Source of the DNA: a virus
Taxonomy: Duplodnaviria > Heunggongvirae > Uroviricota > Caudoviricetes
Reading direction: 5' to 3' (one strand)
DNA: 24,319 nt
IMG/VR virus record: IMGVR_UViG_2923302340_000011
Coordinates: 1 to 24,319 of that record
Numbering within the stretch: the first letter of the stretch is position 1; each line of letters opens with the position of its first letter. The position numbers were made by a program. Shown piece after piece: positions 18,001 to 21,000 of the stretch.

Positions 18001-21000
18001 GTTACGCCCTCCGGCTGGAAGGCCACGGTCAGCGTGGTGCTCTGCCCTTTCACCACCGAGGTGCTGGCAGGCGTCACGGTCATGCCGGTTGCCGCTGTTA
18101 CCGTGCTGCGATCTTCTGCCATCGACGGACGTCCCACATTGGTGACTTTCACCGTGCGGGTGATCACTTCCTTCGCCGTCACCGCCTTACCGATACTGCT
18201 GACCCAGCCACGGAACACATCGACCGTGCCGTTCGGGAAGCGGATTTTATAGGCACGGGTATCGCCTTCATTAAACCACGCCAGCAGCGCCTGCTGCCCC
18301 TGCTCTCCGGGCATCCACGCCAGCGTGAAGCTGGTATCTCCGGCAGATTTCTGCCCCTGCCCGGTCGCAGTCCAGTCTGCATCTTCATCATCGAGATAGC
18401 TGTCGTCATAGGACTCAGCGGTCAGTTCGCCGGGCGTCAGGTCTTTAACTTTTGCCAGACGCGACCAGTCAACGTCTGAAAGCGGATTCGCATAAGGGTC
18501 ACCGCTCCCCTTATAAACCCACAGGGTGGTCCCGGCACCTTTCACCGGCATTGTAGGATTTGGTACAGGCATAGCGTCCTCACATTTCATAGGTAATGAC
18601 ATAAGTCAGACCGGCTGAACTCCACAGGCCCGCATCATCGTCGCGCCGGTAGTCATAGCCGCTGGCCACCATACTGGTGATCAAATCTGACAGTGCCGGG
18701 ATATCGCTCATCACCGGATAAATCCGGGACTCCATCCACGCATCCAGCTCTGAATCCGGCACCTGAGCAGGCAGGAAAACTTCGATATGCAGCTCCGCCT
18801 GCCAGGTATCGCTGTCCAGCTCTTCGCCCGTGTATTCAGCGCCGGTGAGATAAACGGCAACTGCCGGAAAATCCGCCTCATCAAAAACAGCGGGGCGACC
18901 ATCAAAAAGCGTCGCCCCGGTGTCATGCTTCTCCAGTGCATCCAGTACGGCTGCACGGAGTTCAGTATGTTTCATCGCTTTATTACCATTCTCAGTTGAT
19001 GCTGCAGCGCATAGCCCAGCTCTTTCGGAAGACGTTCACGCCGTATCCGTTCAATATTCTGTTTAAACGCCGTGGTCAGCGGCACCGCCATCGGGATTTT
19101 CACCACATCAATGGGGTAACGGTTTTTCCCGGCCACACGCTGCATGACATGCCAGCGGCCATTTTTCAGTTGCTGAATAAACGCGCCGGGAATACGACGG
19201 TTTCCCACCACAAGCACGCTGCCGCCACCTTTCAGGGCTGAACGCTGCCCCTTTTTACGACGCCTGCGTCGGGACAGGACAATCCGCGCGTTACCCTGCT
19301 TTATTACGGGCAAATCCCCCCGGTTAACCCTGATTCTGGCCTGCGGATTTTTGACCGTGGCCCTTTTCAGCCTGGCCCTTTCCTTTACCAGTTTCCGGCG
19401 TACCTTTGTCTCACGGGCAACCTGTGACGCAGACTGCGATATCGCGGATGACGCAACGCGGTTAATGGCCATTGCGGCGGCACCAGGCACCGCCGTTTTG
19501 CTGATACGGCTGAGGTTTTCAACGGCCTGCTCAAGACCTTTTATGGCCATACATCCCCCTTTCAGCGGCGACGGTTAACGGCAGGCGGCACGCCACGCCC
19601 AAGCCAGAGATGACAGCTTCCGCCATCATCCGGCGAAACCCGGTCTATCCAGAAGTTTTCCTCACCGATGGTCAGCGTGTCTCCACGCCGCAGCTGCCGC
19701 ACCTCATCAGTCCGGACAAACAGGGACGGGCTGGAGCCTTCAACGCGCACGCCCTGTCCGGCATAGCTGATATTTTCAGGGTCATCAAAAACACCACGTA
19801 TCACAGCACCGGACTGCTCACCGGATGTCATGGTGGCTGACGTTCCCATGTACCCGCGTATCGTTTCATCAGCGCGGGCAATGGCAGCATCGAACAGGTT
19901 ATCGAAATCAGCCACAGCGCCTCCCGTTATTGCATTCTGGCCAGGCCACGTTCTGTCATTTCGGCTGCCACACCAGCAGAGACACGAAACGCCGTTCCCG
20001 GCAGCACAAATGCCACAGGTTCATCCCGCGTGGCGTGAAGTGCATCAGTATGCAGCTTCACCAGTGCCACGACCGTGACCAGAGCAGCCGTATCAATCAC
20101 GGTATCCGGCTGCGCTGATACCACCTCATTTTCATGCCCGGTCAGCACATTTTCCGGCTGAGAGGGTGTCCTGACCGGCAGTGTCGCCCGTGTCATCAAG
20201 CTCTTCTTCCAGCTCTGCCACACGGAGCGCCAGTTCTTCTTTCGTCCCCGTCAGGCTGATATCACGGTTCAGTTGTTCACCCAGCGAGCGGAGACGGGCA
20301 ATCAGTTCATCTTTCGTCATGGACTCCTCCACAGAGAAACAATGGCCCCGAAGGGCCATGATTACGCCAGTTGTACGGACACGAACTCATCAGGGTCAGC
20401 CAGCAGCATCAGCGGTGCTGACTGAATCATGGTGAACTCTCGCGCCGGATCGCCGGTGGTCACCCAGTTTTTCGGGTAACGGGCAGAGGCGTTAATGCCT
20501 TCGCGCTGTGCGTCCGCATCCTGAATGCAGCCATAGGTGCGCAGACCGCGTGCCTGAGTGTTCCCCAGCACCATCGTGTTGTCCGGCAGGAAGTTCTTTT
20601 TGACGCCGTTTTCCACGTACTGTCCGGAATACACGACGATGGCCACATCGCCATACATCCCCTTATAGGACACCGCTTTACCCAGGTCATTTCACCGCTG
20701 TCTCCAGCTCGGAATTAGAGCCACGACGGGTATCCAGCTTCTCCTTGACGGCTTTGAAGGAACGGAACAGCGCCCAGCCTTTCGGATCGAACACGATGAT
20801 ATTCACCACACCGCTGGCGTTCAGCGCGTAGGCTTCGATATCGTCGGTCGGGTCATACGTGGACTTGTCACGCTTGCTCCACTCCGTGCCGCCGGACTGC
20901 GTGATGTTATTCTCCTCACTGCGGCCCATATCCACCTCAACCGGATCGAAGGCTTCACCGGTCATGGTGTATTTGCCCTTAAGCACGGCAGAAACTGGCC

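What the first reader, a model, noticed from the sequence alone, without database searches (positions are those of the whole stretch)
19927..20320. FI is split between two frames at its linker region
The N-terminal domain (to …TAGQDT) and C-terminal domain (from …ENVLTGHENEV) are in different frames, with the break around 20150-20170 where the sequence has short C, G and A runs. From my memory of lambda FI, the difference is two 1-nt deletions plus one codon deletion (VILDTSELV versus VIDTAALV), but I cannot confirm the exact events without the reference.
Basis: partly seen in the sequence, partly recalled or inferred. Interest (0 to 1): 0.45.

Follow-up and report, generated by a model that had tools for sequence, protein, structure and literature searches.

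The report
Frameshifted lambda FI gene, probably assembly error
The phage DNA-packaging gene FI really is broken into two reading frames in this sequence by two missing bases, but it is one of six single-base slips confined to the head genes of a multi-copy prophage, and the pattern points to a genome-assembly error rather than to biology.

Summary
FI (19927-20320, minus strand) lacks one base in each of two short C/G runs, 10 nt apart, in the linker between its N-terminal part and its folded C-terminal domain. The 'codon deletion' relative to lambda is a natural allele shared with intact 131-codon FI genes.

FI is not a special case. Six private 1-nt indels lie between 20154 and 23063 and also break C, D and E (twice). 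B (partial), FII, thirteen tail genes, dusA and the integrase are intact.

- Restoring one base per site gives full-length proteins. E becomes identical to lambda gpE.
- The window has 0-2 private substitutions against 6 private indels. Ten natural relatives together have 155 against 2, and neither of those two breaks a frame.
- Four of the six indels sit on a base that varies between natural alleles.
- The source genome carries two or three identical copies of neighbouring tail genes.
- An independent short-read assembly of the same lineage matches the unique 6.4 kb exactly.

Most likely explanation (about 0.7): consensus or polishing errors where similar prophage copies cross-map. Rival (about 0.27): a real, very recent inactivation. 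Programmed frameshifting is not supported. Interest is low either way.

The parts
19927..20320 (-). FI gene (lambda-type DNA-packaging chaperone), disrupted. A 131-codon allele once two bases are restored.
   Evidence: Pfam PF14000 matches both halves (profile positions 1-58 and 52-131). The repaired protein matches 1-131 at 177 bits. It lies between E and FII.
20132..20320 (-). N-terminal FI reading frame: 52 native codons, then 10 out-of-frame codons and TGA.
19927..20169 (-). C-terminal FI reading frame (linker remainder plus folded C-terminal domain), in the +1 frame relative to the N-terminal part.
   Evidence: tblastn residues 52-132 in frame -2. Residues 72-131 of the repaired FI align to PDB 2LSM.
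20163..20166 (-). First FI lesion: 1-nt deletion, coding CCCC to CCC (plus strand GGGG to GGG), inside a patch that varies among natural alleles.
20153..20156 (-). Second FI lesion: 1-nt deletion. Natural alleles read GCC[C/G]GG; the window reads GCCGG, so the variable base is the one missing.
20362..21389 (-). Major capsid gene E, split into three frames by two 1-nt insertions (extra A at 20689; T/G doubled to TG at 20996-20997). The repaired product is identical to lambda gpE.
21445..21778 (-). Head decoration gene D, split by a 1-nt insertion (A at 21568). The repaired product is a common D allele.
21788..23106 (-). Head protease/scaffold gene C (with nested Nu3). Its start is cut off by a 1-nt deletion at 23062-23063: natural alleles read AAA[G/A]GCC and the window reads AAAGCC. 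The deposited annotation calls only a 419-aa product from an internal ATG.
13412..19915 (-). FII, Z, U, V, G, T, H, M, L: intact. Z, U, T and H are present as 2-3 identical copies in the source genome.

Best explanation
The split FI is a normal 131-codon lambda-type FI gene whose deposited sequence lacks two bases. Those two errors belong to a cluster of six single-base consensus or polishing errors in the C-D-E-FI stretch of one of several similar lambdoid prophages in a 5.07-Mb E. coli assembly. Reads from the sister copies are similar enough here to cross-map but are not identical. At or near positions where the copies differ, the consensus dropped the variable base (FI twice, C once) or kept both alternatives (E, T/G to TG). 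Segments that are unique (dusA to J), or that encode identical proteins in the other copies where this could be checked (Z, U, T, H), came out clean. Shown: the lesions, their privacy, the lack of accompanying substitutions, perfect restoration by single-base repair, the multi-copy status of neighbouring genes, and exact agreement with an independent assembly in the unique part. Inferred: that the cause is read mixing or failed polishing, and that the true dusA-copy FI is intact.
For: (1) Six private 1-nt indels (three deletions, three insertions) lie at 20154-23063, and no frame-breaking indel occurs elsewhere in the window. The chance that six random sites fall within 2.9 kb of 24.3 kb is about 1e-4.
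(2) Against 12-24 relatives the stretch has no private substitution. Against 10 full-length relatives it has 2 private substitutions and 6 private indels. Those relatives together have 155 private substitutions and 2 private indels, one intergenic and one in-frame 12 nt. Fisher p is 3e-8 to 1e-9.
(3) Restoring one base per site gives FI of 131 aa, E identical to lambda gpE, a widespread D allele and a C protein already on record, with no other defect.
(4) Four of the six indels fall exactly on a base that is a SNP among natural alleles. P is 0.001 under a strict null and 0.065 under a very generous one.
(5) In the source genome (AVS... accessions, 5,071,057-bp contig) U and T are present three times and Z and H twice as identical proteins, while I and J are single.
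(6) The short-read assembly GCA_012780495.1 is 100% identical to window 1-6418, with no mismatch and no gap, and has 1 mismatch in 16421-18307. Its C-D-E-FI contig has all four genes intact and ends exactly at the C indel site.
(7) None of the broken products of FI, D or E looked up (the N-terminal fragments of D and E and both FI pieces) is on record in any other assembly; the middle E fragment was not looked up.
(8) No near-identical copy of the window turned up in searches of the RefSeq complete-genome collection, although its proteins have WP accessions.
(9) It is established that residual errors of polished long-read bacterial assemblies concentrate in repeats (PMC8812927).
Against: No reads were available, so the errors are not demonstrated directly. 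The sequencing platform of the source assembly is unknown. Two of the insertions (A at 20689 and at 21568) are not at a homopolymer or at a known SNP. The sister assembly's C-D-E-FI contig carries a different E-FI allele (72 mismatches), so it does not show the true sequence of this copy. The repaired FI allele is itself not on record anywhere. Prophage genes do decay in nature, and other dusA prophages are visibly degraded.
Confidence: 0.7

Rival explanations
1. The indels are real. The head module (C, D, E, FI) of this dusA prophage has been inactivated by six genuine frameshift mutations, so FI is a true pseudogene in a defective prophage that can no longer build or fill capsids.
For: The lesions are in the deposited record: the 419-aa C product called from the internal ATG is AVS49884.1. 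Three of the six are contractions of short G/C runs, a common mutation type. Degraded prophages at dusA exist, for example ETEC4077, which has lost its head genes. Frameshifted portal genes occur in relatives, for example in CP106924.
Against: Six indels with no accompanying private substitution, whereas natural relatives show about 75 substitutions per indel and none that breaks a frame. One knockout of E would suffice, so selection cannot explain six. About 16 kb of adjacent phage genes is untouched. Repaired proteins are identical to functional ones. The indels coincide with inter-copy SNP sites. No other assembly carries any of the broken products that were looked up.
Confidence: 0.27
2. 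The two-frame FI is functional. The two halves are either joined by a programmed +1/-2 ribosomal frameshift in the overlap (20132-20223) or expressed as two separate polypeptides.
For: The two frames overlap by about 30 codons, and the break is in a flexible linker between separable parts of the protein.
Against: Every relative examined has a single continuous FI ORF of 131-132 codons, except one contig (L010) where FI runs to the contig end. No slippery heptamer or prfB-like site is visible in the overlap. The genuine programmed site of this module, GGGAAAG in G-T, is present and conserved at 17412-17418. The capsid gene next door is broken twice, so a working packaging chaperone would have nothing to act on.
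Confidence: 0.02

Closest known systems
Bacteriophage lambda gpFI (Pfam PF14000 Packaging_FI; C-terminal domain PDB 2LSM)
   Same: Same gene in the same position (E-FI-FII). It is 96% identical in DNA to lambda over FI and its flanks. [quoted passage not shown]
   Different: The reading frame is interrupted at codons 53 and 56 by two missing bases. The allele has 131 rather than 132 codons, which is natural variation.
Residual indel errors in repeat regions of long-read or hybrid bacterial assemblies (Wick and Holt 2022, Polypolish)
   Same: Single-base indels that fragment genes, confined to sequence present in several similar copies, with unique sequence error-free.
   Different: The platform and polishing history of this assembly are unknown. 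Half the errors are insertions, and several sit at inter-copy SNPs rather than in long homopolymers. That pattern suggests mixed-copy consensus more than simple homopolymer miscalls.
Frameshifted genes of cryptic or defective lambdoid prophages in E. coli
   Same: Late-gene operon of a lambdoid prophage with disrupted structural genes.
   Different: Natural decay brings substitutions, deletions and IS insertions. Here there are only single-base indels and otherwise perfect genes.
Programmed -1 frameshift of lambda G/G-T
   Same: Two overlapping frames within one phage structural gene region.
   Different: G-T has a conserved slippery heptamer, present here at 17412-17418, and the arrangement is conserved in all relatives. 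The FI split has neither.

Membership tests
Lambda gpFI / Pfam PF14000 Packaging_FI | Sequence match to the family profile over its whole length | tested here: met
   N-terminal fragment matches profile 1-58 (81 bits) and C-terminal fragment 52-131 (84 bits). The repaired protein matches 1-131 at 177 bits, against a cut-off of 27.
Lambda gpFI / Pfam PF14000 Packaging_FI | Position between major capsid gene E and head-tail joining gene FII | tested here: met
   tblastn order is E (20365-21389), FI (19930-20320), FII (19565-19915).
Lambda gpFI / Pfam PF14000 Packaging_FI | One continuous ORF of 131-132 codons | tested here: not met
   Two frames, with an N-frame stop at 20132-20134. As deposited, this is a disrupted copy.
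Lambda gpFI / Pfam PF14000 Packaging_FI | Folded C-terminal domain as in PDB 2LSM | tested here: met
   Residues 72-131 of the repaired FI align to 2LSM chain A residues 1-61, E = 9e-30.
Programmed ribosomal frameshift | Two-frame arrangement conserved in relatives | tested here: not met
   All relatives with a complete FI have a single ORF.
Programmed ribosomal frameshift | Slippery site in the frame overlap | tested here: not met
   None was seen on reading 20132-20223. The module's genuine site, GGGAAAG, is at 17412-17418.
Naturally decayed prophage pseudogene | Lesions accompanied by substitutions at roughly the natural substitution-to-indel ratio, or shared with related lineages | tested here: not met
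   0-2 private substitutions against 6 private indels. Relatives have 155 against 2. The broken products that were looked up are on record nowhere else.
Assembly or polishing artefact in a repeat | Indel-only differences that restore perfect genes when reverted | tested here: met
Assembly or polishing artefact in a repeat | Affected stretch is multi-copy in the same genome | tested here: inconclusive
   The neighbouring genes Z, U, T and H are present as 2-3 identical copies.
Assembly or polishing artefact in a repeat | Reads or an independent assembly of the same locus lack the indels | tested here: inconclusive
   The sister assembly GCA_012780495.1 has C-D-E-FI intact, but on a contig with another E-FI allele. 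The unique 6.4 kb agrees exactly. No reads were available.

The most novel reading that the evidence does not exclude
The six frameshifts are real and recent, and they hit only the head-building genes while every tail gene from Z to the side tail fibre stays intact. On this reading the host is keeping a lambda-type tail module without a capsid, an early stage of domestication into a flexible-tail bacteriocin (an F-type tailocin analogue) in E. coli.
Probability: 0.04. Interest if true: 0.5.

Novelty: not a real feature. Interest (0 to 1): 0.08.

Why it matters
There is little biological significance. If the indels are errors, the lesson is practical. In assemblies with several similar prophages, apparent pseudogenes in the shared-but-divergent stretches should not be counted as prophage decay, and this prophage may be fully functional. 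If the indels are real, this is one more defective lambdoid prophage. Only the unlikely head-specific-inactivation reading would be of wider interest.

Tried and rejected
- Exact-pattern scans for the doubly deleted FI junction in the species-representative genome collection and in IMG/VR found nothing.
- megablast of FI, of C-FI and of the whole window against 5,426 complete E. coli genomes and against phage records found only intact relatives, at 96-98.7% identity in the best matches, and no same-lineage copy.
- Exact-product look-ups of the FI fragments (62, 75 and 98 aa), the N-terminal E fragment and the N-terminal D fragment found nothing.
- The 103-aa E C-terminal ORF is on record, but only in unrelated contigs where terminase A abuts the end of E and FI is intact.
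- Look-ups of H and J for the source contig failed, because the positions index does not hold the source genome.
- Contigs sharing the exact Z or C protein (L015-L017) are mosaics 97-98% identical to the window, with all head genes complete where the contig covers them, so they are not direct controls for this copy.
- Both possible repaired FI proteins (SP and SR at the second site) are absent from the 15-billion-protein collection. The true allele could therefore not be confirmed.
- Dcm/Dam-motif-associated nanopore error was considered and dropped, because only one of the six sites adjoins a CCWGG (reading contexts).
- A mutator (mismatch-repair-deficient) episode was considered and rejected. 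The lesions are local, include non-run insertions and come without transitions.
- The Popovic et al. 2012 gpFI paper is not held in the library, so domain limits were taken from the 2LSM match.

Full report
**1. What the window is**

The window is the late-gene arm of a lambda-like prophage of E. coli, lying next to dusA.
- pspG and dusA (542-1579, minus strand) and a tyrosine integrase (1668-2765) are at the left end.
- The structural genes run on the minus strand in lambda order (tblastn with lambda proteins): B (partial, 23090-24319), C/Nu3, D, E, FI, FII, Z, U, V, G, T, H, M, L, a 1.75-kb insert, K, I, J and side tail fibre genes.
- The region is about 96-98% identical to lambda and to many prophages.

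**2. The observation**

- From the FI start codon at 20320 the minus strand reads MTKDEL...TAGQDT, then ten out-of-frame codons and a TGA at 20132-20134.
- The rest of FI (...PENVLTGHENEV...GLARMQ, stop at 19927) lies in the +1 frame.
- Alignment with lambda and eight other intact FI genes shows two single-base deletions ten nucleotides apart. The first is coding ACCCCT to ACCCT. The second is at a site that reads GCCCGG or GCCGGG in natural alleles and GCCGG here.
- The third difference from lambda, loss of a CTG codon (VILDT to VIDT), is shared with intact 131-codon alleles, so it is ordinary variation.
- Both pieces match Pfam Packaging_FI. The break is at codons 53-56, upstream of the folded C-terminal domain solved as 2LSM, which aligns to residues 72-131 of the repaired FI. 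'Linker' is therefore the right word.

**3. FI is not alone**

- tblastn and blastn against lambda and phage 2G7b show four further single-base indels just upstream. These are an extra A at 20689 and an extra base at 20996-20997, which together cut the capsid gene E into three frames; an extra A at 21568 in D; and a missing G at 23062-23063, which detaches the first 20 codons of C.
- All six lie within 2.9 kb. The B fragment, FII, thirteen tail genes, the integrase and dusA have no frame-breaking lesion.
- Six random sites would fall this close together with probability of about 1e-4.

**4. Real mutations or errors?**

Several independent lines point the same way.

(a) Privacy. None of about 3,000 E. 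coli genomes with this region, none of the phage records, and none of the other contigs fetched shares any of the six indels.

(b) No accompanying substitutions.
- Against 12-24 relatives the 3.2-kb stretch has no base substitution that is not also seen in a relative.
- In a strict comparison with ten full-length relatives the window has 2 private substitutions and 6 private indels.
- The ten natural sequences together have 155 private substitutions and 2 private indels. One of those indels is intergenic and the other is an in-frame 12-nt insertion.
- Fisher p is 3e-8, or 1e-9 with the larger panel.

(c) Repair.
- Reverting one base per site gives a 131-residue FI, an E protein identical to lambda gpE, a very common D allele and a 439-residue C protein already on record.
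- Nothing else is wrong with these genes.
- Genuine neutral decay, or selection for a knockout, does not produce six frameshifts in otherwise perfect genes.

(d) Position of the indels.
- Four of the six sit exactly on a base that differs between natural alleles. These are CC[C/G]GG to CCGG; the GG[G/A][G/C]G patch; AAAC[T/G]GCC to AAACTGGCC, where both alternatives are kept; and AAA[G/A]GCC to AAAGCC.
- P is 0.001 under a strict null and 0.065 under a deliberately generous one.
- Dropping or doubling a variable base is what a consensus of mixed reads from two similar copies would do.

(e) Copy number.
- Accessions tie the window to a GenBank E. coli chromosome of 5,071,057 bp.
- In that genome the exact U and T proteins occur three times and Z and H twice, while I and J occur once.
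- The genome therefore has at least three lambdoid prophages sharing parts of this arm.
- The accession numbering leaves no protein for FI, E or D, and C is called only from an internal ATG (419 aa). The lesions are therefore in the deposited record (the point about numbering is an inference).

(f) An independent short-read assembly of the same lineage, GCA_012780495.1.
- It is 100% identical to window 1-6418, with no mismatch and no gap, and differs at one base in 16421-18307. Outside the suspect stretch the window is therefore accurate.
- Its contig for C-D-E-FI has all four genes intact.
- That contig ends exactly at the C indel site, as expected if prophage copies in this lineage differ at that base.
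- From 21744 downwards, however, it carries another E-FI allele (72 mismatches). It cannot serve as the true sequence of this copy.

(g) Published benchmarking shows that residual errors of polished long-read bacterial assemblies concentrate in repeats (PMC8812927).

(h) No near-identical copy of the window turned up in searches of the RefSeq complete-genome collection, although its proteins have WP numbers. This is compatible with a quality exclusion, but that is only a guess.

**5. Explanation**

Best explanation (confidence about 0.7).
- The FI split is a consensus or polishing artefact in a part of the prophage that is similar, but not identical, to sister copies in the same genome.
- The true gene is probably an intact 131-codon FI.
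- The lesions and all the statistics above are shown. The read-mixing mechanism and the intactness of the true locus are inferred.

Rival (about 0.27).
- The indels are real and the head module is dead. FI would then be an ordinary pseudogene of a defective prophage.
- gpFI bridges prohead and terminase-DNA and is needed for packaging in vivo (PMC13595911). Separating its two parts would be expected to inactivate it, but with E broken twice this would be moot.

Programmed frameshifting or a functional two-piece FI (about 0.02) is not supported.
- Relatives with a complete FI all have one ORF.
- The overlap has no slippery site.
- The module's real programmed site, GGGAAAG of G-T, is present at 17412-17418.

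**6. Comparison with known things, and novelty**

- The gene is a member of the lambda gpFI family in sequence, position and C-terminal domain. As deposited it fails the one criterion of a continuous ORF.
- The pattern matches known repeat-associated assembly error better than known prophage decay.
- Either way nothing new is implied, so interest is low (0.08).
- The most novel reading not excluded is a real, head-specific inactivation that spares an intact lambda-type tail module, as a step towards a tailocin. I give it about 4%.

**7. What would settle it**

Copy-anchored long reads, or copy-specific long-range PCR with Sanger sequencing across the six sites, would settle the question. So would the sequences of the other prophage copies at the four SNP-coincident positions.

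Noticed in passing
window 20362-23106: Head genes C, D and E are also broken by private single-base indels (23062-23063, 21568, 20996-20997, 20689). FI is one of four affected genes.
   Followed up: yes
window 11663-13412: A 1.75-kb low-GC insert between tail genes L and K. It carries a P22-type antirepressor (324 aa, 11737-12711 minus strand; PF10547 + PF10548) and a divergent Arc-like regulator (13021-13395 plus strand), an immI-like moron in the tail operon. It has no PADLOC match.
   Followed up: partly
window 166-3075: The prophage end abuts pspG-dusA, with a tyrosine integrase (1668-2765) and a DinI-like gene (2827-3075). The same junction, 99.8% identical, occurs in pig ETEC strains whose dusA prophage has lost its head genes by deletion.
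   Followed up: partly
window 14436-16985 and 18580-18975: Tape measure H has a 12-nt in-frame deletion near 14859 (849 versus 853 aa), and U carries a private SNP at 18611. These exact H and U proteins are found only in the source genome, in 2 and 3 copies respectively. The prophage copies therefore share recent ancestry, were homogenised, or share a consensus.
   Followed up: partly
L015 (GCA_012780495.1 contig 117), end corresponding to window 23062: The sister short-read contig stops exactly at the C indel site, where natural alleles have a G/A SNP. This suggests an assembly-graph branch between prophage copies at that base.
   Followed up: partly
window 5875-6327: The side tail fibre gene contains an internal direct repeat of about 260 nt (5875-6138 versus 6066-6327, about 82% identical).
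   Followed up: no
L007-L014: In several unrelated genome and metagenome contigs the same 103-aa C-terminal E ORF arises from a different lesion: a truncated terminase A gene abuts the last third of E. FI is intact there wherever the contig covers it completely (in L010 it runs to the contig end). L007 also carries a second complete capsid gene, a D5-type primase and AlpA upstream, which resembles a satellite-like island.
   Followed up: no
window 17412-17418 (minus strand): The lambda G/G-T programmed -1 frameshift heptamer GGGAAAG is conserved at the end of G.
   Followed up: partly
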